Origin: Bacilli bacterium
GTDB taxonomy: Bacteria; Bacillota_I; Bacilli_A; RF39; UBA660
Assembly (NCBI GenBank): GCA_017938725.1
Contig: JAGBAW010000027.1
Span: 696-64,695 of the forward strand
Length of the DNA: 64,000 nucleotides
Direction of reading: 5' to 3'
Part shown: positions 51,752-63,426 of the stretch, piece by piece
Numbering within the stretch: the first letter of the stretch is position 1
Layout of the letters: each line of letters begins with the position of its first letter
Position numbers and translations under genes: made by a program
The notes under the pieces: generated by a model
Database searches by the model: none
Seen by the model: the letters and a program-made list of their open reading frames with translations, nothing else
Told to the model about the DNA's origin: nothing

Positions 51752-53782
51752 GTGAAGGAAAAATTAAAAAAGTATATAGAAAATATAAAAAATTTTAATT
51801 ATAAAAAATATATTAATACAAACATATTATTTTTAACATTTGTTGTTACATCATTAATTAACGGAATGATACTTAGATTTATAACAGTGCATAATTATTT
51901 CGCAATTAAGCCTGTTCTTGCAGATTTAGCATTTATATTACTAATAGGATCATTTGTATATTTATTTAAACCAAAAAATAGATTTAAATATCTTATGATA
52001 ATGTCGGTTTTATTAACTGCTATTTGTGTAATTAATTCATTATATTATACATATTATATGTCGTTTGCGTCATTTTCATTAATCGCAGTCTCACTAACAG
52101 TAGTGGATGTTGGCGATGCAGTTGTAAAAAATGTACTTCAAATAAGGGACTTTATTTTTATATGGCAATTAATTGCGCTTATTATTGTACATAATAAATT
52201 AAAGAAGAAAAATCATTATAATATGGTTGCTAAAAAAGAAAATAAAAAGAAACGTTTTACTGGAACATTGGTATCTGGAGTATTAATTTATGCTTTGTTT
52301 TTTATGACTGTTACATCCGTTGAATATAGTAGATTAAGTAAGCAATGGAATAGAGAATTTTTAGTTACTAAATTCGGTGTATATACATACCAATTAAATG
52401 ATTTATTTAAAAGCTTAGATGCTAAATTTAATACATTATTTGGATATGATAATGCTGCCAAGAATTTTAGAGAATTTTATGCTGAAAAAAAGGAAAATAA
52501 AGATAACGAATATACGAATATGTTCAAAGATAAAAATGTAATAGTTATTCATGCTGAGAGTATTCAAAATGTTGCTCTAGATGCAACATTTAATGGTATG
52601 GAAGTAACACCTAATTTAAATAGATTAAAAAATGAAGGTTTATACTTTAGTAATTATTATGCACAAGCAAGTAGTGGGACGAGTAGTGATACAGAATTTA
52701 CTTTTTCTACCTCACTTCTTCCTGTAACAAATGGTGCCGTTTCTATTAGTTATTGGAATAGAGAATATGAAACACTCCAAAAGTTACTTAAGAATGAAGG
52801 TTACAGAACAATTAGTATGCATGCTAATACTGGTAGTTTCTGGAATAGAATTAATTTTCATAAGAGTCTAGGCTATGATAAATTTTATAGTAAGGTTGAT
52901 TACGAGATAGATGAGGAAATAGGCCTTGGTTTATCAGATAAATCATTTTTTAGGCAATCAGTGAAAAAATTAAAAACAGAATATGACAAAAATGGTAAAT
53001 TTTATGCAACATTAATAATGCTTTCAAATCATACTCCATTCGATGATTTAGATAAGTATGGTCAATTTGATACCGATATTAAAGAAGAGATTAAAAAAGT
53101 TAATGAAAATGGAGAAGAAATAGCAGAAGTCGTATCCTATTCTTATATGGAAGAAACAAAATTAGGTAATTATTTTAAATCAGTTCATTACGCTGACAGC
53201 GCTATTGGAGAACTTATTGATGAGTTAGATAGTCTAGGTCTTTTAGACAATACCATTCTTGTTATATATGGTGATCATGATGCCAAACTGCCAAAAAGTG
53301 ATTTCATAAGATATTATAATTATAATAAGGAAACAGATGATATAATTGACAAAAATGATGAAAATTATATACAAGTTGACTATTATAAGTATGAGCTTGA
53401 TAGATCTGTTCCATTTATTATTTGGTCTAAAAATGATAATTTATCAAAGAAAATAGATACTGTTATGGGAATGTATGATGCAATGCCAACACTTGCGAAT
53501 ATGCTTGGTGTTAAACCAACATATGCACTTGGTAATGATATAATGAATTTAAAAGATAATATAGTAGTATTCCCTAATGGGAACTGGCTTACTAATAATA
53601 TCTATTATAATAGCCAAAAGGATCAATACAAGGTATTAAATACAGATTATATAGTTGATAATGATGAAATATCTAATAATAATGAGTATGTATCAAGAAG
53701 ACTTGAAATTTCAAATGATATAATACTATATGATTTAATAAAAAATGAAAATGATAGATTAGAAAGAGTAGAAGGGAAATAA
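51752..53782 (+). CDS. ltaS: Lipoteichoic acid synthase-family sulfatase (LtaS-like)
   Basis: Five N-terminal TM helices followed by an extracellular alkaline-phosphatase/sulfatase-type domain (motifs VIHAESIQN...SSGTSSDTEF...GDHD). Confidence 0.85.
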   Translation: MKEKLKKYIENIKNFNYKKYINTNILFLTFVVTSLINGMILRFITVHNYFAIKPVLADLAFILLIGSFVYLFKPKNRFKYLMIMSVLLTAICVINSLYYTYYMSFASFSLIAVSLTVVDVGDAVVKNVLQIRDFIFIWQLIALIIVHNKLKKKNHYNMVAKKENKKKRFTGTLVSGVLIYALFFMTVTSVEYSRLSKQWNREFLVTKFGVYTYQLNDLFKSLDAKFNTLFGYDNAAKNFREFYAEKKENKDNEYTNMFKDKNVIVIHAESIQNVALDATFNGMEVTPNLNRLKNEGLYFSNYYAQASSGTSSDTEFTFSTSLLPVTNGAVSISYWNREYETLQKLLKNEGYRTISMHANTGSFWNRINFHKSLGYDKFYSKVDYEIDEEIGLGLSDKSFFRQSVKKLKTEYDKNGKFYATLIMLSNHTPFDDLDKYGQFDTDIKEEIKKVNENGEEIAEVVSYSYMEETKLGNYFKSVHYADSAIGELIDELDSLGLLDNTILVIYGDHDAKLPKSDFIRYYNYNKETDDIIDKNDENYIQVDYYKYELDRSVPFIIWSKNDNLSKKIDTVMGMYDAMPTLANMLGVKPTYALGNDIMNLKDNIVVFPNGNWLTNNIYYNSQKDQYKVLNTDYIVDNDEISNNNEYVSRRLEISNDIILYDLIKNENDRLERVEGK

Positions 53783-53787
53783 TACAT

Positions 53788-54456
53788 ATGGAAAATAAAA
53801 AACGCAGTAAAGCAACAAAATCCGGTAATAAAAGGAAAGTATTAATACTAATATTCATACTTTTAATAGCGATTTTGCTTATATTATTTGCTATGAAAAT
53901 TGGTAAAAATAATGATCAGAATGGAAGAAGGAAAAATGTAGTCGATGAGATAAAATCATTCGATTATAGTGTTTCAGATACAGATACTAAATTGTTTAAG
54001 GATACATTCAAGGAATTAAAAAAGGAATTATCCAAGAGTAATGTAGATAAAAAAAATTATGCATCTTTAATTAGTAAATTATTTATAATAGATTTTTATA
54101 CATTATCTAATAAATCTAATGTTAATGATGTAGGGGCTGTACAATTTGTATATTCTAGTTATAAAACTGATTTTGTAGATATTGCAAGAACAGGTATTTA
54201 TAAACAAGTTCAAAGTAATTTAGATAATAATAGAACTCAAAAATTGCCAGAAGTTGAAAGTGTTACTATAGAAAGTATAGAAGAAGTAATACCTTCTTCT
54301 ATACTAGAACATAAGGATTTTAGAAATGTTACAGAAGCAAATGCATACGAAATTAAAGTAAATTGGACTTATAAAGAGTCAAATGATTTTCAAGATTCGG
54401 CAACTATTTTAGTTGTTCCAGATAAGGATAAATTGTCAGTTGCAAAATTGGACTAA
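53788..54456 (+). CDS. Membrane-anchored hypothetical protein
   Basis: N-terminal TM helix; 6-nt gap after ltaS. Confidence 0.6.
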   Translation: MENKKRSKATKSGNKRKVLILIFILLIAILLILFAMKIGKNNDQNGRRKNVVDEIKSFDYSVSDTDTKLFKDTFKELKKELSKSNVDKKNYASLISKLFIIDFYTLSNKSNVNDVGAVQFVYSSYKTDFVDIARTGIYKQVQSNLDNNRTQKLPEVESVTIESIEEVIPSSILEHKDFRNVTEANAYEIKVNWTYKESNDFQDSATILVVPDKDKLSVAKLD

Positions 54457-54481
54457 GAATTATAAGGTAATTGGAGGATAT

Positions 54482-56620
54482 ATGAAAAAAAATGATAAAC
54501 AGGAAACTAAGAAAAACAGCAAGTTTTTGAATCTACTTTCAGGTATAATAGTTGGTATGTTCATTTGCATAACTATTTATCTTATTTATAATATATTTAA
54601 ATTAAAAGGGATTGAAGATATATTAAGATATATTGTAGTGGGCATACTTATACTAGTTTGTTTAATAGTATTAATTAAATATCTTAGATTTAAAAAGAAA
54701 GGTAAAATAGGAAAATATATATTATTCATATTAATTTTAATAATATTTGGTGCTTTAGAATTTTTTGCTAGCTCAGTTATAAGCAGGGGTATTAGTGTAA
54801 TAGATAAAATAAGTAAGAATAAAATTACATACACAAGTGCTTTAATATCTATGAAAGATGGGAAGTATACTAATATAAACAAAGTAAAAGAAGCAAAGAT
54901 TGGTATAATAACCGATAAAGAAGATGTAGAAGGTTATGTTCTTGCTCAAAATATAATTGATAAGGATAATATTAAAGATAGTCAATTAGTAGAATATGAT
55001 GATTATATTACAATGTTAAATGATTTATATGAAGATGAAGTAAATGCAATATTTATATCAGGTAGTTATGCAGACAAATTTTCAACTATGGAAAAATTTA
55101 GTGATATAAAAGATGATGTTGTTGTTTTAGATAAATATTCCAAGTTAATGAAAAAAATAGTAGATAATACAACAAAATCTTCTTCAAAAAAGGTGACAGA
55201 ACCATTTACTATGTTACTTTTAGGGGTTGATTCTGAAACAGAGGATATTTCTAAAACAAGTGGATTAGGGGATACAATAATGCTTGTAACATTTAATCCT
55301 AAAACCTTAAATGCAACAATATTTAGTATTCCAAGAGATACTTTTGTTCCAGTATCATGTTATAGAAATGCATTAAGTAAAATAACTCATGCAGCATCAG
55401 GTGGAGATTCTTGTATGATTAAAACTGTTGAAAATTTTACGGGAATTGATATTGATTATTATGCAAAGGTTAATTTTAAAGGATTAATAAATTTGGTGGA
55501 TGCCCTTGGTGGAATTGATGTTGATGTTCCATATGCACTTTGTGAAAGTGATGAAACTAGATCCTATGCTAATACAATTTTTATAGAAAAGGGATGGCAA
55601 CATTTAAATGGTAGACAGGCACTTGCACTTTCAAGAAATAGAAAAAATATTCCTTGGTGTGGACCTGACTATAATAAAGGAGTAAGAAATGACTTCGTTC
55701 GTGGACAAAATCAACAATTGGTTGTTAAGGCAATTATGAACAAGGCAAAAACGATAAAAAGTGTCAATCAACTTTATGATATATTAGATACTATAAGTAT
55801 AAGTTTAGATACTAATTTAACTAGAGATCAAATATTAGATTTTTATAATGTATTAAAGAAGATATTATTAAACTCTGATTCATTATCTGATACAAATGAT
55901 ATAATAAATATGCAAAAGACATATTTAAATGGTTCAGGTGGAATAATATATGATAATATAGCAAATATGGATTTATATGAGTATGTCCCATCATCACAAA
56001 GTTTAAATGCTATTATTAAGGCTATGAAAGTAAATCTTGAATTAGAAGAAGAGGAGTATGAAACATCATTTAGTTTTACTATTGATAAAGAATATAAACC
56101 AAAAGTTATAGGATCCGATTTATATGGAGGCGTTAAAAAATATCCAAGCAAAGGATCTGATACCCAGAAACCAGAAAATACTTGTTCTACTAATGAAGAA
56201 CTTGGAGCAGATAATGTAACATGTGTTTGTAAAAATGGTTATGAAAGAACTAAAGAAGGAACATGTGAGAAAAAGGAAACAAATACTTGTTCTACAAACG
56301 AAGAGTTAGGTGCGGATAAAGTAACATGCGTTTGTAAAAATGGATATACAAGAAATGAAAAAACAGGAAAATGTGAAAAAGAAAATAGTTCAGGTGAAAA
56401 AAATATAAATATGTGTGTAGCTGAAGACGGATATTATTATTGGTATGACTCTGAAGGAAATAAAAATCCAACTCAATATATAGATAGTACATGTTCAACT
56501 AAAAAGGAAGAAAAACCTATTAAACCTAGCGATGAACCAGATACTCCTGAATCTGGCGAAAATGGAACAAATAAACCTGATACAACAATTCCAGGTTCAA
56601 CTACAACACTTACAGAATAA
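54482..56620 (+). CDS. LytR-CpsA-Psr (LCP) family cell-wall polymer transferase with C-terminal EGF-like Cys-rich tandem repeats
   Basis: LCP core LLLGVDSE...GDTIMLVTFNPKTLNATIFSIPRDTFV. Two 35-aa repeats TCSTNEELGAD.VTCVCKNGY....G.CEK (105-nt units at 56180 and 56285). ATG 54482 after RBS ggagga. Confidence 0.85.
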   Translation: MKKNDKQETKKNSKFLNLLSGIIVGMFICITIYLIYNIFKLKGIEDILRYIVVGILILVCLIVLIKYLRFKKKGKIGKYILFILILIIFGALEFFASSVISRGISVIDKISKNKITYTSALISMKDGKYTNINKVKEAKIGIITDKEDVEGYVLAQNIIDKDNIKDSQLVEYDDYITMLNDLYEDEVNAIFISGSYADKFSTMEKFSDIKDDVVVLDKYSKLMKKIVDNTTKSSSKKVTEPFTMLLLGVDSETEDISKTSGLGDTIMLVTFNPKTLNATIFSIPRDTFVPVSCYRNALSKITHAASGGDSCMIKTVENFTGIDIDYYAKVNFKGLINLVDALGGIDVDVPYALCESDETRSYANTIFIEKGWQHLNGRQALALSRNRKNIPWCGPDYNKGVRNDFVRGQNQQLVVKAIMNKAKTIKSVNQLYDILDTISISLDTNLTRDQILDFYNVLKKILLNSDSLSDTNDIINMQKTYLNGSGGIIYDNIANMDLYEYVPSSQSLNAIIKAMKVNLELEEEEYETSFSFTIDKEYKPKVIGSDLYGGVKKYPSKGSDTQKPENTCSTNEELGADNVTCVCKNGYERTKEGTCEKKETNTCSTNEELGADKVTCVCKNGYTRNEKTGKCEKENSSGEKNINMCVAEDGYYYWYDSEGNKNPTQYIDSTCSTKKEEKPIKPSDEPDTPESGENGTNKPDTTIPGSTTTLTE

Positions 56621-56629
56621 TATAGTAAA

Positions 56630-56656
56630 AAGAAGCAAGAATATTTGCTTCTTTTT
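56630..56656 (+). terminator. Rho-independent terminator
   Basis: aagaagcaa-gaatat-ttgcttctt stem followed by ttt. Confidence 0.75.
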
Positions 56657-56753
56657 AACGTTAATTTGACATAATAAAACAATTTTCTTATCTTACTATT
56701 TATTAGTATTTACTATTTTGATATAATTAAATAAAAGTAAGAGGAGGGATAAA

Positions 56754-58751
56754 ATGAAATTTATGAAATATTTTACAACGTTTATACTTATTTTATTATT
56801 ATCCTTCCTTGGGTTAAAAAACGCATATGCATCAACTAAATTTACAATGTGCAATAATTTAACAGAACCATCTTTTTTAAGAACAACACCCGGTGGAACA
56901 CCTATTAAAGATGTAGATGGGAAAGATGTACTATTAAAAAACCCTTCTTCCATGGAAATAATTGATACAATAACACATCAAGGACAAAAATATTATAAAT
57001 TATATACAAATTACTATTCTAATAATTATACTGGATATGTAAAGGCAGCATGGATAAATAACTGTAAAGAATATACAACAGATGATAATTATGGAAATAG
57101 TCTTAGAAGTGCAGGATTTCCTGAAAGTTATATATTACCACTTCAAAAATTACATGCTATGCATCCAAATTGGAGTTTTACAGTATCTAATACAAATATA
57201 GATTGGAGTGAAGCTGTTTCAAACGAGTCAGCACCAGCAGATAAAAATTTAATTCAGTTTTCAAATTCACTAGATAAGGTAGATAAATCACTTCTTTCAA
57301 CAGATGGTGCGGCATATAGTAATGGCACATATTATCAGTTCCAACCAGGATGGTACTCACCAAGTAAGCAAACTATATCCTTTTATATGGATCCAAGAAA
57401 TTGGCTCGATGAACAAACCATTTTTATGTTTGAACAATTATCATTTAATGCTGAATATCATACTAAAAGCAGTGTTCAATCCATGCTTAATGGTACATTT
57501 ATGAGTGGTTCATATGAATACAATGGGAAAACTATCACTTATGCAGATACATTTGTTGATGTTGGAAAACAAAAGAATGTTAGTGCAATTCATTTAGCAA
57601 GCCGTGTACTTCAAGAACAAGGTGTAGCAGGAAGTGCTACAATTAATATGAATGGTGAAGATGGTCAAACGTATTATAATCATTTTAACATTTTGGCTAG
57701 TGGTTCAACAGTAGAACAAATAGTTTCTAATGCCTTAACAGTTGCAAAAAATAGAGGATGGAATAATCCATATTTATCAATACTTGGAGGAGCATCCACA
57801 ATATCTTCTGAATATACAAGTGTTGGACAAGATACTAATTATTATGAAAAATTTAATACAATTAATCACAAAAATTTATATTGGCATCAATATATGCAAA
57901 ATGTTAGAGCTTTGCCATCAGAATCAATTAGAACATATTCGACTTATAATAAAAAAGGACTTATAGAAAACTCATATACATTTAAGATACCTGTTTATAA
58001 AAATATGCCTGATAAAACGTCATTATCTATATCAAATAATTCAGATAATACATTAAGTTCATTATCAGTAACAAATTGTAATTTAAATCCATCATTTAAT
58101 TCAGCAGCAACTAGTTATACATGTAATGTTTCAAATAATATAAATGAAGTAAAGGTAAGCATGAAGAAAACAAGTTCATATTCATCTGTTGAGGGTGGTG
58201 AAATAAGAACTGTAAAATTAACTGATAAAACAACAAATATTAATATAGTTGTTACTGCTGCCAATGGGGAAAAGAGAACATATAAAATACAGGTAAATAA
58301 AGTTGAATCAGATAAAATAAGTCCTGCTGATATAATAAGTTATTTGGGTTATGATAATGTAAATAATATGATAAGTGGAATTACCGTTGGGACAAATATT
58401 TCTGATGTAATTTCAAAGGTAAAAAATAAATATAATTTAGTATCTATTGAAGCTAAAAATAAAAATGGTACAAATAAGCCATCAGGTAAAATCGCTAGTG
58501 GTGATACAATTACTATAAAAAACAATAATCAAATAGTGACATTTACTATGATTGTAAAAGGTGATACAAATAGTGATGGAAAGATAAGTATTTCAGATTT
58601 GGCAATGATAAAGGCTAATTTACTTGGAAATAGTAATTTAAATGGTGTTTATTATAAAGCAGCTGATATAAATAAGGATGGAAAAATAAGTATTTCAGAC
58701 TTAGCAATGGTTAAGGCACATTTATTAGGAACATCAAAAATTATAAAGTAG
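56754..58751 (+). CDS. Exported surface protein with SH3b-like N-terminal domain, central putative glycosidase-like region, cadherin-like beta-sandwich domain and C-terminal type-I dockerin
   Basis: Signal peptide. Dockerin duplicated segments DTNSDGKISISDLAMIKANLLG and DINKDGKISISDLAMVKAHLLG (D.N.DGKI...D....K..LL). Cadherin-like LSSLSVTNCNLNPSFNSAATSYTCNV. Confidence 0.75.
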   Translation: MKFMKYFTTFILILLLSFLGLKNAYASTKFTMCNNLTEPSFLRTTPGGTPIKDVDGKDVLLKNPSSMEIIDTITHQGQKYYKLYTNYYSNNYTGYVKAAWINNCKEYTTDDNYGNSLRSAGFPESYILPLQKLHAMHPNWSFTVSNTNIDWSEAVSNESAPADKNLIQFSNSLDKVDKSLLSTDGAAYSNGTYYQFQPGWYSPSKQTISFYMDPRNWLDEQTIFMFEQLSFNAEYHTKSSVQSMLNGTFMSGSYEYNGKTITYADTFVDVGKQKNVSAIHLASRVLQEQGVAGSATINMNGEDGQTYYNHFNILASGSTVEQIVSNALTVAKNRGWNNPYLSILGGASTISSEYTSVGQDTNYYEKFNTINHKNLYWHQYMQNVRALPSESIRTYSTYNKKGLIENSYTFKIPVYKNMPDKTSLSISNNSDNTLSSLSVTNCNLNPSFNSAATSYTCNVSNNINEVKVSMKKTSSYSSVEGGEIRTVKLTDKTTNINIVVTAANGEKRTYKIQVNKVESDKISPADIISYLGYDNVNNMISGITVGTNISDVISKVKNKYNLVSIEAKNKNGTNKPSGKIASGDTITIKNNNQIVTFTMIVKGDTNSDGKISISDLAMIKANLLGNSNLNGVYYKAADINKDGKISISDLAMVKAHLLGTSKIIK

Positions 58752-60203
58752 GTGAAAATAATGAAAAAAAGATTATTATATTTTCTTATTATTGGAATTA
58801 TATTCTTTATACCAAAAAATGTATTTGCTGTTTCTGTATCTACAAGTTGTTCAGGATCTTCTAGTGCAACACTAGGTAATACAGTAACAGTAACTGTTAA
58901 AGGTAATGCCTCTGATAGTGTTATGTGGGATTTATCAATTTCATATGATTCATCCAAACTACAATATGTAGGTGGTAATGCAACACATTATATCTCAGAT
59001 GATTTTTCTTCATCACTTAATCTTACATATAAATTTAAAACAATTTCCTTAGGAAATGCATATGTAAAAGTAGCGAATGCTGAGGTAGCAACAGCATCAG
59101 GTGATTCTACTAGTTCACATGATGGAATATGTAATATTAATATAGTAAAACAATCTAGTACAGGTAGTACTAATATAGCAAAAAGCTCAGACAACAATCT
59201 AAAATCTTTATTTATAGATGGTGCAAATTTAAATCCTGAATTTAATAAAGATACACTTGAGTATTCTATTGAACTTCCATATGACACAACTAAAATAAAG
59301 GTTAATGCAGAAAAAAATGATTCTAAAGCTAATGTAAGGGGTGTTGGCGAAATAGATGTAAAAGAGGGTCAAAATAAAATTGAAATAGTAGTAACTGCTG
59401 AAAATGGTAGTACAAAGACATATATTATAAATGCTCTAGTTAAGGAAAAAGACCCAATCAAAGTAAAAGTAGCCGGAGAAGAATATACCATTGTTAGAAA
59501 ACTTGATGATATTAATATACCGATTAATTTTGAGAAGAAAACTATAAAAATATTAGATGATGATATTGAAACATTTTATAATAAAAAATTGAAGTATACT
59601 TTGGTGGCGTTAAAAAATAAAAAAGGTGATATTTCGTTATTTAAATATGATGAAGTAAAAAATATATATGATAAGTATTTACAGTTAAAGTCTAAAGAAT
59701 TAAATATAGTTTTAACTAAATTAGATAATGAAAAAGATATTCCAAATAGATATCATAAAGTTAATTTTGATTATAATGGAACTAATGTAGAAGGTTATGC
59801 ACTTAATAAGAATTCTGATTTTAGATTAGTGTATGGTGTTAATATAGAAAATGGTGATGAAGGCTTTTATTTATATGATTTGAAAGAAAATACCATTCAG
59901 AGATTTTATAATGAGCAATTAGATGATTATTCTAATTTAATAGATAGATGTAAACTAGTATTCATAGTACTTGGATCATTTATAATACTTCTAACAATCA
60001 TAATAATAGTATTATTATCAAAAAATGTTAAATTTAAAACAATGTATTTAAATAAAAGATTAAATCCTATAGATAATCCAAATTATAATAGTAAAAGTAT
60101 AAAGTATCAGGATTTAGAGGGTACTATATCTATGAATAAAATACAAAATAGCGAAGGTAAAAGTAAGAAAAAATCAAAAGAAAAAACATTTTTAGATGAA
60201 TAA
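58752..60203 (+). CDS. Membrane-anchored protein with N-terminal cohesin-like domain and cadherin-like beta-sandwich domain
   Basis: Signal peptide. ATLGNTVTVTVKGNASDSVMWDLSISYDSSKLQYVGG fits the cohesin pattern (G..v.V.V......g.....f.l.YD...L......G). Cadherin-like LKSLFIDGANLNPEFNKDTLEYSIELP. C-terminal TM (LVFIVLGSFIILLTIIIIVLL). Confidence 0.65.
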   Translation: MKIMKKRLLYFLIIGIIFFIPKNVFAVSVSTSCSGSSSATLGNTVTVTVKGNASDSVMWDLSISYDSSKLQYVGGNATHYISDDFSSSLNLTYKFKTISLGNAYVKVANAEVATASGDSTSSHDGICNINIVKQSSTGSTNIAKSSDNNLKSLFIDGANLNPEFNKDTLEYSIELPYDTTKIKVNAEKNDSKANVRGVGEIDVKEGQNKIEIVVTAENGSTKTYIINALVKEKDPIKVKVAGEEYTIVRKLDDINIPINFEKKTIKILDDDIETFYNKKLKYTLVALKNKKGDISLFKYDEVKNIYDKYLQLKSKELNIVLTKLDNEKDIPNRYHKVNFDYNGTNVEGYALNKNSDFRLVYGVNIENGDEGFYLYDLKENTIQRFYNEQLDDYSNLIDRCKLVFIVLGSFIILLTIIIIVLLSKNVKFKTMYLNKRLNPIDNPNYNSKSIKYQDLEGTISMNKIQNSEGKSKKKSKEKTFLDE

Positions 60204-60351: not shown

Positions 60352-61740
60352 ATGAAGTTCAATAATTTTTTATCAAAAGTTTTTATATATGTATCTATAA
60401 TAGTTTTATCAATAATTTCACTTATTTTTCTAATTAAAAATAATTTTTTAATATCATTAATACTTTTTCTAGTTGTAATATTTATATCACTTAAAGAAAA
60501 TATTAAAAAATTTCCATTAATTCTTTTTATAACAAGTTTAATAATTAGGATTATAGTTATAATAGTTGCTAATTTTCCACAAGTATATGATTTTAAAATA
60601 TTATTAGATGCTTCAAAGGCTTTTTCTATATCTGATTACTCATTTAACCAGTGGGATCATTTTTCAATGTGGGGTTATCAAACGGGATTTGTAATTTATC
60701 AAGGCTTAATACTAAAATTGATAGAAAATGAAATAATATTAAAAATTTTAAATGCCATATATTCTTCATCTTTGGTATTAATCATTTATGCTGTAGCAAA
60801 AAAAATAAGTACTGAAAGGAGTGCTAGAATTGTATCACTTCTATATATGATTTTCCCTTTCTCACTAGTATTAAATACTGTTTTAGCTAATCATCATTTA
60901 TCAACTTTACTTATGTATATTGGAATATTATTCTTAATAAAAGATGAGAAACATATTAAAGATTATGTTTTTGCTGCAATTTTGATAAGTCTCGGTAATA
61001 TTATTAGACCAGAGGGCATTATTGTAGTATGTTCACTCTTACTATATGAATTTTTTAGATTAAAAAAGGATTTAATATTAGATACAGTAAAGAAAATATC
61101 AGTATTTTTAATTGTATATTTTTTGATAGGTACTACATCCTCATTAATTATCCAAAAGTCAGGTATAAATCCAGTTGGACTTAAAAATACAAATCCACTA
61201 TGGAAATTTGTTTTAGGATTTAATCATGATACATGTGGATATTATAGTGGTGATGATGTTATATATCAAAAAGATAAAAAAATGGAAATGGATATAATTA
61301 AAGAAAGAATATCTAAAAATCCAGCACAGATGGGTAAATTATTTGCTTGTAAAATAGATCATTTTTGGCTACTATCTGATATGTCTATGGAAAGTGGAGC
61401 ATTTAATGATAAAGAAATAAGTGTACTTGGAATTAATATTAAGTATAACCTAATAGAAGATATTGTTTTAACGGTAAATAAATTTATTTATATCATAACA
61501 TTTTTCATGTGCATTATCTCAGTTATCATTAAAAGAGGGCAGATTGTTAAAGATAAATCATTCTTCTTTGTTATTTTAATGATCGTAACTTTCTTTGTAT
61601 ACTTATTAATTGAAATACAACCAAGATATTCTTATTTTATACATATTTGTATATTTATACTTGCTAGTTACTCATTTGAATATTTATTAAATGTTATATG
61701 TAATATAAAAAATAAGATTACTAAAAATGTAAATAGTTAA
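60352..61740 (+). CDS. Polytopic membrane protein (putative polysaccharide polymerase/GT-C-like), function unknown
   Basis: About 12 TM helices; first gene of a cluster with acetyltransferase and glycosyltransferases. Confidence 0.6.
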   Translation: MKFNNFLSKVFIYVSIIVLSIISLIFLIKNNFLISLILFLVVIFISLKENIKKFPLILFITSLIIRIIVIIVANFPQVYDFKILLDASKAFSISDYSFNQWDHFSMWGYQTGFVIYQGLILKLIENEIILKILNAIYSSSLVLIIYAVAKKISTERSARIVSLLYMIFPFSLVLNTVLANHHLSTLLMYIGILFLIKDEKHIKDYVFAAILISLGNIIRPEGIIVVCSLLLYEFFRLKKDLILDTVKKISVFLIVYFLIGTTSSLIIQKSGINPVGLKNTNPLWKFVLGFNHDTCGYYSGDDVIYQKDKKMEMDIIKERISKNPAQMGKLFACKIDHFWLLSDMSMESGAFNDKEISVLGINIKYNLIEDIVLTVNKFIYIITFFMCIISVIIKRGQIVKDKSFFFVILMIVTFFVYLLIEIQPRYSYFIHICIFILASYSFEYLLNVICNIKNKITKNVNS

Positions 61741-61760
61741 AAACAATGAAGGAGAATAAA

Positions 61761-62309
61761 ATGAAAAAATATATAAAAAAACAACTTAAAAGAATTAGAA
61801 TCTATTTCATATTTGATGCTTATAAGAGAACAGAATATTTAGTAAAAAATAAAGTTTTTAAAGAAGTAGGTAAAAATTTTTTCTATCAGCCAAGAAAAAT
61901 TCCTGCTGATCCAGAATTTATAAAATTTCATGATAATGTGGTTGTTACTAGTGATGTAATATTTATGACACATGATATTACTCATATTATGCTTAATAAT
62001 ATGAGTAAAGATTATTATTATAAATATAATTCTGGTTGTATAGAAGTTATGAATAATGTATTTATTGGAAGTGGGAGTATTATACTTCCAAATATAACAA
62101 TTGGTAATAATGTAGTAATCGCGGCAGGATCAGTGGTTACAAAAAATATAGCTGATAATTCTGTGGTAGCGGGTAATCCAGCAAGAGTAATTGAGTCATT
62201 TGATGAATATGTACAAAAAAGAAGAGAAAAAAATGAAAACTTAATAGAGTATACTGAAAATATATCAGATGATAAATTGTGGGATGGATTTTATAAAAAT
62301 AAAGATTAG
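61761..62309 (+). CDS. Hexapeptide-repeat (LbH) sugar O-acetyltransferase
   Basis: VFIGSGSIILPNITIGNNVVIAAGSVVTKNIADNSVVAGNPARVI is a left-handed beta-helix hexapeptide motif. ATG 61761 after aaggag. Confidence 0.85.
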   Translation: MKKYIKKQLKRIRIYFIFDAYKRTEYLVKNKVFKEVGKNFFYQPRKIPADPEFIKFHDNVVVTSDVIFMTHDITHIMLNNMSKDYYYKYNSGCIEVMNNVFIGSGSIILPNITIGNNVVIAAGSVVTKNIADNSVVAGNPARVIESFDEYVQKRREKNENLIEYTENISDDKLWDGFYKNKD

Positions 62310-62319
62310 GTGATTTAAA

Positions 62320-63426
62320 TTGGAAAAGAAGAAAATATTATTTTTATCATGTACTTTGTGTATTGGTGGAATTGAAACTGCATTAATTAATTTACTAAAT
62401 AATATAGATTATAATAAATATGATGTAACTTTATTATTAGAAAAGAAAGAGGGGGAGTTATTAGATAAGGTAAATAAAAATGTAAAATTATATAATTATA
62501 ATATATGCACAAGTAGAAATGTAATTTATAGAAAAATTATAAATTTTATAAAAAGATTAAAATTTATATTAACAAGCTATAAGAAATATGATTTTTCTGT
62601 TTGCTATGCAACTTATTCAAAACCATGTAGTTTATTATGTTTAAAATCATCAAATAATACAGCAATTTATATTCATGGTGATTATGTTCAAGAATTTAAC
62701 GATTCAAAAATGGCCATATCATTTTTTGAAAACCAGGATATATATAGTTTTAAAAATATAATATTTGTGTCTAATGAATCAAGAGATAATCTAGTTAATT
62801 TAATGCCCGAGATTAAGAGTAAAAGCATAGTTATAAATAACTTTATAAATTATAAAGAAATAATTAAATTATCAGAGAAAAATATTAAGGAAGAAAAGCC
62901 AAAAAATAAAACCCTCTTGTTATATGTTGGTAGATTAGATGAAAATGTAAAAAGAACATCTAAAATGATAGATGTTACTGAATATTTGATTAACAATAAT
63001 ATTAATGTTGAATTTTGGATATTAGGTGATGGTAATGATTATAATTTATATAAAAAAATTATTACAGAAAGACACCTAGAAAATAGTGTAAAATTACTTG
63101 GAAAAAAGCTTAATCCATATCCATATATAAAATTATGTGACTACTTAATTATTACATCAGATCATGAAGGGTTTCCTGTAACGTTTTTGGAAGCTATTTG
63201 TTTAAATAAAAATATTATATCAACTATAGCTGTATCAGATGATGAAATAGATTTAAATGTTTATGGTAATATAGTGTCAAAAGATATTGATACTATGAAG
63301 AGTCAGGTCTATGATATTGTTAAAAATGGTAAGAATAATAAAGTAAATGTTGATTTTGATAAAATTAATAATAGTAGAATGAAAAAGATAGAAAAAATAT
63401 TTGAGGGGGATTTTCATGAAGTTTAG
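62320..63426 (+). CDS. Glycosyltransferase family 1 (GT4-type)
   Basis: C-terminal EGFPVTFLEAICLNKNIIST (E-x7-E GT1 motif). TTG start after RBS aggtga. Confidence 0.8.
   Translation: MEKKKILFLSCTLCIGGIETALINLLNNIDYNKYDVTLLLEKKEGELLDKVNKNVKLYNYNICTSRNVIYRKIINFIKRLKFILTSYKKYDFSVCYATYSKPCSLLCLKSSNNTAIYIHGDYVQEFNDSKMAISFFENQDIYSFKNIIFVSNESRDNLVNLMPEIKSKSIVINNFINYKEIIKLSEKNIKEEKPKNKTLLLYVGRLDENVKRTSKMIDVTEYLINNNINVEFWILGDGNDYNLYKKIITERHLENSVKLLGKKLNPYPYIKLCDYLIITSDHEGFPVTFLEAICLNKNIISTIAVSDDEIDLNVYGNIVSKDIDTMKSQVYDIVKNGKNNKVNVDFDKINNSRMKKIEKIFEGDFHEV

What the first reader, a model, noticed from the sequence alone, without database searches (positions are those of the whole stretch)
56754..60203. 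Adjacent dockerin-bearing and cohesin-bearing surface proteins
Gene 56754 ends with a textbook type-I dockerin duplicated segment. The next gene (1-nt gap) encodes a signal peptide, a cohesin-like beta-sandwich and a C-terminal TM anchor. Both carry cadherin-like beta-sandwich domains. This looks like a self-contained cohesin-dockerin anchoring pair that tethers a cell-wall-active enzyme to the membrane, outside any cellulosome context.
Basis: partly seen in the sequence, partly recalled or inferred. Interest (0 to 1): 0.55.

Follow-up and report, generated by a model that had tools for sequence, protein, structure and literature searches.

The report
Membrane-tethered wall hydrolase via mini-cohesin/dockerin
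Two co-transcribed genes of an uncultured low-GC gut bacterium encode a secreted peptidoglycan-cutting enzyme that ends in a dockerin and a membrane protein that begins with a shortened, unannotated cohesin. The two modules most likely clip together to hold the enzyme at the cell surface, a housekeeping use of the "cellulosome glue".

Summary
Gene 1 (56754-58751) is a secreted GH73/SagB-like N-acetylglucosaminidase ending in a clear type-I dockerin (Pfam 2e-13). Gene 2 (true start ATG 58761, ends 60203) is a type I membrane protein.

Its 105-aa N-terminal beta-sandwich is not annotated as cohesin anywhere. It is only borderline in Pfam (24.7 bits against a cut-off of 24.1, and only when scanned alone). 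Four further lines support a shortened cohesin that binds the neighbouring dockerin:
- Its profile retrieves canonical multi-cohesin scaffoldins.
- The AlphaFold model (pLDDT 94.6) has non-cellulosomal cohesins among its best PDB neighbours.
- In 59 non-redundant genome loci the anchor gene directly follows the dockerin gene. Dockerin and N-domain divergence are tightly and specifically correlated (r=0.76; partial Mantel 0.68, 0/2000 permutations).
- A fused dockerin-linker-N-domain AlphaFold model gives pTM 0.72, which needs a confident inter-domain arrangement.

The pair lies in a conserved cell-envelope cluster (LtaS, LCP, glycosyltransferases), with no cellulosome context.

There is a precedent: a published remark that Ruminococcus bicirculans has one dockerin and one cohesin associated with a GH73 enzyme. 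I therefore call this a new variant of a known kind. Binding, calcium dependence and enzyme activity are untested.

The parts
56626..56657 (+). Terminator-like hairpin after the LCP gene; marks the upstream boundary of the two-gene unit
   Evidence: 14-pair stem with a T-rich tail
56666..56694 (+). Promoter-like site (TTGACA-17-TATCTT) upstream of gene 1
   Evidence: This is a consensus match only; the count of such sites in the region does not exceed the shuffles.
56754..58751 (+). Gene 1: secreted GH73-like glucosaminidase with a C-terminal dockerin (665 aa)
   Evidence: 100% identical to P0121; the family nearly always carries PF00404.
56754..56831 (+). Gene 1 signal peptide (MKFMK...LKNAYA|S)
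   Evidence: Read from the sequence
56832..57338 (+). Gene 1 N-terminal domain (aa ~27-195) of unknown function. SH3_3 is recorded only as a faint hit in a homologue.
   Evidence: faint SH3_3 in the P0058 neighbour; no Pfam hit here
57351..58004 (+). GH73/SagB-like N-acetylglucosaminidase domain (aa 200-417), with the catalytic-type Glu288 in LQEQG
   Evidence: Glu288 aligns with the Glu of the LLETG motif in SagB and is at least 95% conserved in 60 sequences.
58053..58301 (+). Cadherin-like beta-sandwich domain (aa 434-516)
   Evidence: PF12733, E=2.1e-8
58311..58547 (+). Module preceding the dockerin (aa 520-598), unannotated
   Evidence: Conserved in position; no Pfam hit.
58557..58727 (+). 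Type-I dockerin (aa 602-658): two 22-residue segments, each a Ca-binding F-hand loop plus a helix
58750..58754 (+). AGGTG ribosome-binding site for gene 2, overlapping the TAG stop of gene 1 (translational coupling)
58761..60203 (+). Gene 2: type I membrane anchor protein (480 aa from ATG 58761)
   Evidence: P0001 is 100% identical and starts at MKK.
58761..58829 (+). Gene 2 signal peptide (MKKRLL...KNVFA|V)
   Evidence: Read from the sequence
58830..59150 (+). Short (~105 aa) cohesin-like N-terminal domain; the proposed dockerin receptor
59229..59432 (+). Cadherin-like beta-sandwich domain of the anchor
   Evidence: PF12733, E=1.1e-10
59442..59930 (+). Conserved juxtamembrane domain (~160 aa) of unknown fold and function
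   Evidence: many invariant residues; no Pfam or PDB match
59955..60017 (+). Transmembrane helix (LVFIVLGSFIILLTIIIIVLL), followed by a Lys-rich cytoplasmic tail that runs to 60200
   Evidence: Read from the sequence. The positive charges C-terminal to the helix imply an N-out, C-in topology.

Best explanation
Proposed mechanism. A bicistronic, translationally coupled operon makes two proteins. The first is a Sec-secreted peptidoglycan N-acetylglucosaminidase of the GH73, SagB/AtlE type, which ends in a symmetric type-I dockerin. The second is a single-pass type I membrane protein whose distal N-terminal module is a shortened cohesin. The dockerin binds the cohesin non-covalently and presumably with Ca2+. 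[quoted passage not shown] The enzyme then acts on the cell's own wall (glycan-strand trimming, release or turnover) next to the LtaS/LCP/glycosyltransferase envelope machinery encoded around it.

Shown here:
- The domain content of both proteins.
- Homology of the N-domain to cohesins.
- Conserved gene adjacency.
- Specific dockerin/N-domain co-variation.

Inferred:
- Physical binding and its Ca2+ dependence.
- The substrate.
- The physiological role.
For: Domain content
- Dockerin: Pfam 2e-13, with matches to many solved type-I dockerins.
- GH73-type domain with a conserved catalytic-type Glu.

N-domain as a cohesin
- Pfam Cohesin is the top family for the isolated window domain: E=3e-5, 24.7 bits against a cut-off of 24.1.
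- An orthologue in the same architecture (P0108) has a full-length Pfam Cohesin match, 8-139 of 139, E=6e-7. It is preceded by a protein of more than 2565 aa that ends in a dockerin-like sequence.
- The N-domain profile finds 2234 representative clusters. Seven of the 10 multi-repeat hits I scanned are bona fide Cohesin proteins, and several of those are classic scaffoldins. Examples are P0292 (8x Cohesin + CBM3 + Doc) and P0312 (5x Cohesin + CBM2).
- A profile rebuilt without P0108 still scores these at E=1.7e-14 to 6e-8, using the size of the whole library.
- The AlphaFold2 model has pLDDT 94.6. Its Foldseek neighbours are 2xdh, 2vo8 and 2w1n (non-cellulosomal cohesins, TM 0.67-0.70), tied with the DUF11/CLIPPER structure 9ifr. 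The fused model adds 6kgc_A and 5n5p_C, both cohesins.

Linkage of the two genes
- In essentially every locus fetched, the anchor gene lies 6-27 nt downstream of a gene whose product ends in two F-hand loops.
- Fifty-nine non-redundant full-length pairs were obtained.

Co-evolution
- Dockerin and N-domain distances correlate at r=0.76. This is the highest value of any domain pair.
- It exceeds the values for segments that are equally adjacent on the DNA: X-module to dockerin 0.40, and N-domain to cadherin 0.46.
- The partial Mantel correlation is r=0.68, with 0 of 2000 permutations reaching it.
- Dockerin helix types (DLAMxKA, DYAKVKSHIL, DLLKVQKHI, DYxxIKNxIM) map block-wise onto N-domain types.

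Predicted packing
- The fused Doc-linker-N-domain AlphaFold2 model has pLDDT 90.1 and pTM 0.72 over 203 residues.
- If the two domains were not confidently placed relative to each other, pTM could not exceed about 108/203, roughly 0.5. This bound is my own inference from the definition of pTM.

Context
- The two dockerin helices are 77% identical within a protein and 41% identical between proteins, which is classic dockerin symmetry.
- LtaS, a 218-aa protein, LCP, the Doc protein, the anchor and glycosyltransferases are syntenic in a 49%-identical relative.
Against: - No direct binding data exist.
- I could not inspect the coordinates or the PAE of the fused model. The interface is therefore unknown, and the pTM argument is indirect.
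- The multiple alignment for that model was unpaired.
- Pfam did not report Cohesin on the full-length protein.
- Across the family, more N-domains hit Inhibitor_I42 (24/40) and BatD/DUF11 (19/40) than Cohesin (10/40) at E<1.
- The best single Foldseek hit is a CLIPPER/DUF11 stalk domain, not a cohesin.
- The domain is about 30-35 residues shorter than canonical cohesins, so the canonical binding face may be altered.
- The dockerin and N-domain coding regions lie only about 80 nt apart. Co-inheritance through recombination could therefore contribute to the correlation. The flanking-segment controls argue against simple linkage.
- Pfam Glucosaminidase (PF01832) did not hit gene 1, so the catalytic domain is divergent and its bond specificity is unproven.
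Confidence: 0.72

Rival explanations
1. The N-terminal domain of gene 2 is a generic Ig-like stalk or spacer domain of the DUF11/CLIPPER or BatD type and does not bind the dockerin. The dockerin binds something else: another cohesin elsewhere in the genome, a wall polymer, or nothing (a Ca2+-stabilised tail). The two genes are neighbours only because both serve the cell envelope.
For: - The top Foldseek hit is the CLIPPER/DUF11 domain 9ifr.
- BatD/DUF11 Pfam hits occur in 19/40 family members.
- The domain is shorter than cohesins.
- The window is only 64 kb, so other cohesins in the genome cannot be excluded.
Against: - Co-variation is specific to the dockerin and N-domain. It is far above that of the other, equally linked domain pairs.
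- The profile retrieves canonical scaffoldin cohesins rather than the far more numerous Ig-like repeat proteins.
- Pfam Cohesin is the best family for the window's own domain.
- The pTM of the fused model is 0.72.
- The same Doc then Coh-TM gene order recurs with quite different cargo, including surface proteins of more than 2200 aa.
Confidence: 0.12
2. The membrane protein is mainly a regulator of the hydrolase rather than a passive anchor. It could be an inhibitor, an activator or an immunity-type partner. Examples would be a chagasin-like inhibitory domain, or a sensor whose conserved juxtamembrane domain and cytoplasmic tail couple hydrolase activity to wall synthesis.
For: - Inhibitor_I42 is the most frequent weak Pfam hit in the family: 24/40 members, best E=5.8e-8, above its cut-off for one member.
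- The ~160-aa juxtamembrane domain and the cytoplasmic tail are well conserved and unexplained.
- In S. aureus the membrane partner SpdC controls the product length of SagB (bioRxiv 10.1101/2020.05.21.109470).
Against: - The chagasin loop motifs NPTTG and RPW are absent from all 117 N-domains (that these motifs define chagasins is from my own knowledge).
- Chagasins inhibit cysteine peptidases, not glycosidases.
- The co-varying partner is the dockerin, not the catalytic domain. The GH73 to N-domain correlation is 0.63, and the dockerin to N-domain correlation stays at 0.68 after the other domains, GH73 included, are controlled for.
- This rival is compatible with tethering and partly overlaps the main explanation.
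Confidence: 0.1
3. The enzyme is displayed on the surface for action on other cells or substrates, for example to lyse competitors or to forage peptidoglycan or host glycans. On this reading it does not remodel the producer's own wall.
For: - Cohesin-dockerin systems are classically used to display enzymes that act on external substrates.
- In C. perfringens, non-cellulosomal cohesin-dockerin pairs assemble glycosidase toxins. PDB entries 2ozn, 2jnk, 2vo8 and 2w1n appear among the hits.
- The cohesin sits at the distal tip of a multi-domain stalk.
Against: - The pair is embedded in a conserved cell-envelope biosynthesis cluster (LtaS, LCP, GTs).
- Its closest characterised relatives are housekeeping autolysins of S. 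aureus, SagB and AtlE.
- In each locus recovered here it occurs as one two-gene unit, across many reduced-genome gut Bacilli.
Confidence: 0.06

Closest known systems
Non-cellulosomal cohesin-dockerin pairs. Examples are the single dockerin plus single cohesin 'associated with a GH73 enzyme' in Ruminococcus bicirculans (stated in Ze et al. 2015, PMC4611034, citing Wegmann et al. 2014), the C. perfringens glycosidase toxin complexes, and the R. bromii amylosome.
   Same: - A dockerin on a non-cellulolytic enzyme is paired with a cohesin in an organism without a cellulosome.
- The R. bicirculans remark even names a GH73 enzyme.
- Cohesins from C. perfringens NagJ/NanJ are among the best structural neighbours of the N-domain.
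   Different: - Here the cohesin is a ~105-aa shortened form that standard annotation misses. Databases call both proteins 'cadherin-like beta sandwich domain-containing'.
- It sits on a type I membrane protein with its own TM helix, not on a sortase- or SLH-anchored scaffoldin or on another enzyme.
- The pair is a conserved, translationally coupled two-gene unit inside a wall-biogenesis cluster in uncultured low-GC Bacilli.
- I could not read Wegmann et al. 2014, so I do not know whether the R. bicirculans genes are orthologues.
Cellulosomal type-I cohesin-dockerin (C. thermocellum CipA/enzymes; Pfam PF00963/PF00404)
   Same: - The dockerin has a duplicated 22-residue F-hand segment with internal symmetry.
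- The N-domain profile matches CipA-like scaffoldin cohesins repeat by repeat.
   Different: - One cohesin and one dockerin.
- No CBM and no plant-cell-wall enzymes.
- The cohesin lacks about 30-35 central residues. Matches to canonical cohesins split into profile positions 11-59 and 67-108, which lie about 35 residues apart in the target.
- It is anchored by a TM helix.
S. aureus SagB-SpdC peptidoglycan release complex
   Same: - A GH73-type glucosaminidase is held at the membrane by a dedicated membrane protein.
- SagB is the best PDB and NCBIfam match of gene 1's catalytic domain.
   Different: - SagB has its own N-terminal TM helix and contacts an 8-TM CAAX-protease-like protein (bioRxiv 10.1101/2020.05.21.109470).
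- Here the enzyme is secreted with a cleavable signal peptide and is tethered through a dockerin to a single-pass protein.
- The NCBIfam score is 50 bits against a cut-off of 425, so gene 1 is not an equivalog. The relationship is one of analogy, not membership.
DUF11/CLIPPER and BatD Ig-like stalk domains
   Same: Similar size and beta-sandwich fold. 9ifr is the top Foldseek hit, and there are weak BatD Pfam hits.
   Different: - CLIPPER domains occur as tandem stalk repeats with an intramolecular isopeptide bond (bioRxiv 10.1101/2025.04.25.650565).
- Here the domain is single and N-terminal, carries a covarying Cys pair instead, and co-evolves with a dockerin.

Membership tests
Dockerin type I (PF00404) | Profile match above the curated threshold | tested here: met
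   E=2e-13, 50.7 bits against 22.9, profile positions 1-57 of 57.: matches to solved dockerins 2yik, 2vn6, 2ccl, 1ohz and others.
Dockerin type I (PF00404) | Two tandem ~22-residue segments, each with a Ca2+-binding F-hand loop (D-x-N/D-x-D-G-x-I-x-x-x-D) followed by a helix | tested here: met
   DTNSDGKISISD at 58563 and DINKDGKISISD at 58665. The AlphaFold2 model shows helices after each loop.
Dockerin type I (PF00404) | Internal symmetry of the two recognition helices (the basis of the dual binding mode) | tested here: met
   helix positions 13-22 are 77% identical within a protein and 41% identical between proteins. In the window, the two segments are 18/22 identical.
Dockerin type I (PF00404) | Ca2+-dependent folding and cohesin binding | not testable with these tools
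   Needs ITC or pull-down with and without EDTA.
Cohesin (PF00963) | Profile match above the curated threshold | tested here: inconclusive
   - Isolated domain: 24.7 bits against 24.1, E=3e-5, covering profile positions 7-96 of 139.
- The full-length protein reports no match.
- 10 of 40 family members match at E<1. I42 and BatD compete.
Cohesin (PF00963) | Sequence homology to canonical scaffoldin cohesins | tested here: met
   The family profile, also when rebuilt without the one Pfam-positive member, matches each repeat of multi-cohesin proteins. Examples are P0286 at 1.7e-14, P0312 at 1.5e-10 and P0292 at 6e-8, with Z=1.84e9. Pfam confirms 4 to 8 Cohesin stretches in these examples.
Cohesin (PF00963) | Nine-stranded beta-sandwich (jelly-roll) fold | tested here: met
   
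- pLDDT 94.6, with nine strand elements.
- TM 0.67-0.70 to 2xdh, 2vo8 and 2w1n; 6kgc_A and 5n5p_C also appear.
- The match is not exclusive: 9ifr (CLIPPER) scores equally.
Cohesin (PF00963) | Canonical module size of about 140 residues | tested here: not met
   The domain is about 105-110 aa. Alignment A1 shows a central gap of about 25-30 residues relative to P0108. The split profile matches agree with this.
Cohesin (PF00963) | Binds a cognate dockerin | not testable with these tools
   Indirect support only: adjacency, co-variation and the pTM of the fused model.
GH73 peptidoglycan N-acetylglucosaminidase | Sequence similarity to characterised GH73 enzymes | tested here: met
   SagB 6fxp/6u0o 4e-11, AtlE 4pi7 3.6e-7, Atl 6fxo 3.6e-4.: NCBIfam SagB 1.7e-13.
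GH73 peptidoglycan N-acetylglucosaminidase | Conserved catalytic glutamate | tested here: met
   Glu288 (LQEQG) aligns with the Glu of the LLETG motif in SagB. It is at least 95% conserved in 60 family members. That this Glu is the general acid is from my own knowledge of GH73.
GH73 peptidoglycan N-acetylglucosaminidase | Match to the Pfam Glucosaminidase model (PF01832) | tested here: not met
   No PF01832 hit at E<=0.1, so the domain is divergent.
SagB-SpdC peptidoglycan release complex | The partner is a polytopic (8-TM) CAAX-protease-like membrane protein, and the hydrolase is itself TM-anchored | tested here: not met
   The anchor has one TM helix and no CPBP-type Pfam hit. Gene 1 has a cleavable signal peptide. 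The NCBIfam SagB score is 50 against a cut-off of 425.
Cellulosome | A multi-cohesin scaffoldin with a CBM and many dockerin-bearing plant-cell-wall enzymes | tested here: not met
   There is one dockerin in the 64 kb and one cohesin-like module. The neighbours are envelope-biosynthesis genes.
Chagasin-type peptidase inhibitor (I42) | The conserved loop motifs NPTTG and RPW | tested here: not met
   0 of 117 N-domains carry either motif. That these motifs define the family is from my own knowledge.
CLIPPER/DUF11 | An intramolecular Lys-Asn isopeptide bond with a catalytic Asp, and tandem stalk repeats | not tested
   The domain is a single copy and N-terminal. I did not examine isopeptide residues. 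The covarying Cys30/Cys124 pair suggests a different kind of clamp.

The most novel reading that the evidence does not exclude
The short N-domain may define a large, so far unannotated 'mini-cohesin' family. Together with dockerins on adjacent genes, it would form a general membrane-tethering system in reduced-genome gut Bacilli and some Clostridia. The cargo would be a housekeeping GH73 hydrolase in most lineages and giant adhesin-like proteins in others. On this reading, cohesin-dockerin pairing has a conserved role in building or maintaining the cell's own wall. That role would be functionally analogous to the SagB-SpdC peptidoglycan-release complex, with class-specific recognition codes that have diversified in step.
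Probability: 0.3. Interest if true: 0.65.

Novelty: new variant of a known kind. Interest (0 to 1): 0.5.

Why it matters
- **Role of the system.** Cohesin-dockerin is usually treated as a device for assembling polysaccharide-degrading machines. A conserved, single-pair, membrane-anchored version that holds an autolysin inside a wall-biogenesis locus would show the system doing housekeeping work.
- **Retention of a wall hydrolase.** It would explain how these uncultured, reduced-genome gut Bacilli keep a secreted wall hydrolase at the cell. Whether they lack sortase or SLH anchoring was not examined.
- **Annotation gap.** The receptor module is shorter than the Pfam cohesin model expects, so both proteins are currently labelled only 'cadherin-like'.
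- **Recognition code.** The block-wise matching of dockerin helix types with N-domain types gives a natural set of orthogonal binding pairs. These could be tested, and possibly used as small protein-protein connectors.

Tried and rejected
- **PDB by sequence, full-length gene 2.** phmmer gave only chance hits to antibody light chains, which share the signal-peptide and Ig-strand pattern.
- **PDB by sequence, whole-protein family profile.** It gave the same noise. The ~160-aa juxtamembrane domain stays unassigned, and Pfam on the isolated piece found nothing.
- **PDB by sequence, N-domain profile.** It placed cohesins (3l8q at 0.002; NagJ at about 0.02) among antibody chains. This is suggestive but not significant on its own.
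- **Paired fused alignment.** I therefore used an unpaired block alignment, which carries no inter-chain co-variation.
- **Third homologue search.** Using the long cohesin-type N-domain of P0108 as query returned only 3 fragments.
- **Chagasin-inhibitor reading.** Rejected, because the family motifs are absent.
- **Cellulosome context.** Rejected.
- **Literature.** Peer et al. 2009 (PMC3035643) is not held. Wegmann et al. 2014 did not appear in the library search. I could not check how far earlier surveys had already listed this family.
- **Model coordinates.** The coordinates and PAE of the models are not exposed, so the predicted interface could not be examined.

Full report
**1. What is at the coordinates**

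The window is about 24% G+C throughout. The region holds two same-strand ORFs.

Gene 1 (56754-58751, 665 aa) has these features:
- It begins with a cleavable signal peptide.
- It carries a Pfam type-I dockerin at residues 602-658, E=2e-13, 50.7 bits against a cut-off of 22.9.
- It carries a Cadherin-like PF12733 domain at 434-516, E=2e-8.
- The dockerin is two near-identical 22-residue segments, DTNSDGKISISDLAMIKANLLG and DINKDGKISISDLAMVKAHLLG.
- A regular-expression scan of all six frames finds these two F-hand loops and no other loop inside a long ORF in the 64 kb.

- It matches the solved S. aureus glucosaminidases SagB (6fxp, 6u0o; 4e-11), AtlE (3.6e-7) and Atl.
- It matches the NCBIfam SagB model at 1.7e-13. 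The score is far below that model's equivalog cut-off.
- Glu288, in LQEQG, aligns with the Glu of the LLETG motif in SagB. It is at least 95% conserved in 60 family members.
- Pfam's own Glucosaminidase model did not hit, so the domain is divergent.

Gene 2 is listed from a GTG at 58752. All homologues start at MKK. AGGTG at 58750-58754, overlapping gene 1's TAG stop, is a good ribosome-binding site for ATG 58761. The two genes are therefore 9 nt apart and probably translationally coupled.

The order of parts in the gene 2 product is:
- a signal peptide;
- a ~105-aa beta-rich N-domain;
- a Ser/Thr linker;
- a Cadherin-like domain, E=1e-10;
- a well-conserved ~160-aa domain with no Pfam or PDB relative;
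- one 21-residue hydrophobic helix;
- a Lys-rich tail.

This is a type I, N-out membrane protein. A hairpin terminator-like site (56626-56657) and a TTGACA-type site (56666-56694) lie between the upstream LCP gene and gene 1. That fits a separate two-gene transcription unit, although such consensus matches are weak evidence.

**2. Is the N-domain a cohesin?**

Pfam on the full-length protein says nothing. A phmmer search against PDB gives only noise.

Scanned alone, the window's N-domain has Cohesin as its best Pfam family. The match is E=3e-5, 24.7 bits against a cut-off of 24.1, covering profile positions 7-96 of 139. Across 40 family members the weak hits are mixed: Inhibitor_I42 in 24, BatD/DUF11 in 19 and Cohesin in 10. 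The chagasin loop motifs are absent from all 117 N-domains examined, so I set that reading aside.

Three further tests point to cohesin.

(i) One orthologue, P0108, has the same downstream architecture and is 43% identical. Its N-domain is 141 aa and matches Pfam Cohesin end to end (8-139 of 139, E=6e-7). Its upstream neighbour is a surface protein of more than 2565 aa that ends in a dockerin-like sequence.

(ii) A profile of the N-domain family was searched against 1.84 billion representative proteins.
- It finds 2234 clusters at E<=1e-3.
- I scanned 10 of the multi-repeat hits with Pfam. Seven are genuine cohesin proteins, and several of those are classic scaffoldins. Examples are P0292 (8x Cohesin + CBM3 + dockerin) and P0312 (5x Cohesin + CBM2).
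- I rebuilt the profile without P0108, keeping the library size for the E-values. The same proteins still score 1.7e-14 to 6e-8.
- Each canonical cohesin is matched in two blocks, profile positions about 11-59 and 67-108, roughly 35 residues apart in the target.
- The short N-domain therefore looks like a cohesin with a central deletion. This agrees with the gap seen against P0108 in alignment A1.

(iii) The AlphaFold2 model of the N-domain is confident: pLDDT 94.6, pTM 0.83.
- Its best PDB neighbours are the DUF11/CLIPPER domain 9ifr (3.9e-5), the non-cellulosomal cohesin of A. fulgidus 2xdh (5.8e-5), and the C. perfringens cohesins 2vo8 and 2w1n (TM 0.70).
- These sit ahead of generic Ig-like folds at TM about 0.5.
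- In the second model the sandwich also hits cohesins 6kgc_A and 5n5p_C.

The fold alone does not separate cohesin from CLIPPER. CLIPPER is a CnaA-like stalk domain with an isopeptide bond (bioRxiv 10.1101/2025.04.25.650565). Combined with (i) and (ii), I regard 'shortened cohesin' as established at the level of homology.

**3. Do the two modules work together?**

Gene order:
- A 49%-identical relative has the same order: LtaS, a 218-aa protein, LCP, the dockerin protein, the anchor, then glycosyltransferases.
- I fetched 79 loci from GTDB species representatives. Most are uncultured Bacilli or 'Tenericutes', plus Clostridium sp. CAG:433, and some are Acutalibacteraceae, Lachnospiraceae and other Clostridia.
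- In essentially every locus with enough upstream sequence, the anchor homologue lies 6-27 nt downstream of a gene whose product ends in two F-hand loops. In most cases that product is the GH73 protein.

Domain-by-domain divergence, from 59 non-redundant full-length pairs plus the window:
- Dockerin and N-domain distances correlate at r=0.76. This is the highest value of any pair of domains.
- It is higher than the dockerin with the module just before it in the same protein (0.40).
- It is higher than the N-domain with the cadherin domain just after it (0.46).
- Controlling for the GH73, juxtamembrane, X and cadherin domains, the partial Mantel correlation is 0.68. None of 2000 permutations exceeds 0.21. 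Other partial correlations are 0.06-0.13.
- The pattern is visibly block-wise. DLAMxKAxLLG dockerins go with ...WD..SYDSSKLQ N-domains. DYAKVKSHILG goes with YWEG..SYDSSKLQL. DLLKVQKHI goes with GKLGSW.YEI.HDSSKL. DYxxIKNxIM goes with an ITSSN...W.EN type.

There is a caveat. The two coding segments are only about 80 nt apart, so exchange of a DNA cassette would also make them share history. The equally adjacent flanking segments do not share it, however. The dockerin plus N-domain therefore behaves as a discrete unit, which is what a cognate pair predicts.

Within each dockerin the two helices are 77% identical, against 41% between proteins. This is the concerted evolution typical of dockerins.

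Fused model:
- I folded dockerin (68 aa), then the natural signal peptide as a linker, then the N-domain, with an unpaired alignment.
- The result is pLDDT 90.1 and pTM 0.72 for 203 residues. Low confidence is confined to the linker.
- With d0 of about 5 A at this length, a chain whose two domains had no defined mutual position could not exceed roughly 108/203, about 0.5. The value therefore implies a confidently predicted dockerin/N-domain arrangement.
- This bound is my inference. I had no access to coordinates or PAE, so the interface itself is unverified.

**4. Mechanism proposed**

The enzyme is exported and its signal peptide is cut off. The dockerin folds with Ca2+ and docks on the cohesin at the tip of the anchor. 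The anchor's cadherin-like and unknown domains form a stalk above the TM helix.

The hydrolase is thereby confined to the membrane-proximal wall of its producer. The genomic context suggests it works alongside lipoteichoic-acid synthase, an LCP ligase and glycosyltransferases.

The nearest functional analogue is SagB-SpdC of S. aureus, where a membrane protein scaffolds a GH73 enzyme and sets its product length (bioRxiv 10.1101/2020.05.21.109470). The hardware differs: SagB is itself TM-anchored and SpdC is an 8-TM protein.

Which steps are shown and which are inferred:
- Shown: domain content, homology, linkage and co-variation.
- Inferred: binding, Ca2+ dependence, bond specificity and physiological role.

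The rivals are a generic stalk domain with the dockerin binding elsewhere, a regulatory rather than anchoring partner, and display for action on foreign substrates. They are listed with their evidence in the rival-explanations section.

**5. Comparison with what is known, and novelty**

Non-cellulosomal cohesins and dockerins are known. Ze et al. [quoted passage not shown] The idea therefore has a direct precedent at the annotation level. I could not read the cited source or the 2009 survey by Peer et al.

What appears new:
- the shortened cohesin form that escapes annotation;
- its placement on a self-anchored type I membrane protein;
- the tight two-gene unit conserved across many uncultured gut Bacilli inside a wall-biogenesis cluster;
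- the matched diversification of dockerin and receptor.

I class it as a new variant of a known kind, of moderate interest.

**6. Other points**

- Relatives use the same gene order for other cargo. In L071, L077 and L074, a dockerin-ending protein of more than 2200 aa is followed by two membrane proteins. Each has a full-length cohesin-type N-domain.
- Cys30 and Cys124 of the anchor covary perfectly: 97 sequences have both and 20 have neither. This suggests a disulfide clamp.
- The neighbouring LCP protein ends in unusual Cys-rich EGF/TNFR-like repeats.

Noticed in passing
window 54413-56620 (C-terminal part, about 56200-56560): The LytR-CpsA-Psr (LCP) protein upstream ends in two Cys-rich repeats (CSTNEELGAD.VTCVCKNGY...C). 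These give weak TNFR/cEGF-like Pfam hits. The same tail occurs in the LCP neighbours of L005-L007, L009 and L011. Such a tail is unusual for a bacterial LCP enzyme.
   Followed up: partly
window 58848-58850 and 59130-59132 (anchor Cys30 and Cys124): The two cysteines lie near the first and last strands of the cohesin-like domain. They covary perfectly across 117 homologues: 97 have both and 20 have neither. This suggests a disulfide clamp in an extracellular domain of an anaerobe.
   Followed up: partly
window 59442-59930: A well-conserved ~160-aa juxtamembrane domain of the anchor has many invariant Tyr/Gly/Pro residues. It has no Pfam, NCBIfam or PDB relative. Its function is unknown.
   Followed up: partly
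L071 635-11225; L077 1020-11680; L074 2759-12946: In related genomes, a surface protein of more than 2200 aa that ends in a dockerin-like sequence is followed by further membrane proteins. In L071 and L077, two such proteins each have a full-length cohesin-type N-domain and a TM helix. In L074, one full-length example was seen. This is the same Doc then Coh-TM gene order with a different cargo and more than one receptor.
   Followed up: partly
L053 2492-3919: A second, separate dockerin-protein/cohesin-like-protein pair lies on the same contig as the GH73 pair. Some genomes therefore carry more than one such couple.
   Followed up: no
window 51752-56620 and 60352-63426: The pair sits in a cell-envelope cluster: an LtaS-type sulfatase-family enzyme, a 222-aa membrane protein, LCP, then a PMT_2-type glycosyltransferase. 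Two further downstream ORFs look like an acetyltransferase and a GT1-type glycosyltransferase; this rests on the Hexapep and Glycos_transf_1 hits of the syntenic genes in a relative, as these two window ORFs were not scanned here. The order LtaS, small protein, LCP is syntenic in a 49%-identical relative (L001).
   Followed up: partly
L015, L025, L026, L032, L036, L074 (record titles): Several loci with this Bacilli-type gene pair sit in bins named Methanobacteriaceae, Phocaeicola vulgatus, Muribaculaceae or Saccharibacteria. Several are short contigs, so mis-binning is more likely than a true wide distribution.
   Followed up: no
P0256 (1338 aa; hit of the N-domain profile): Fourteen evenly spaced (100-aa period) 20-residue matches to profile positions 11-30 only. 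This is a repetitive protein that matches just the 'V-x-V-G-x-T-x-T-V-T' strand motif. It is probably not a cohesin, and it warns that whole-protein scores can be inflated by repeats.
   Followed up: no
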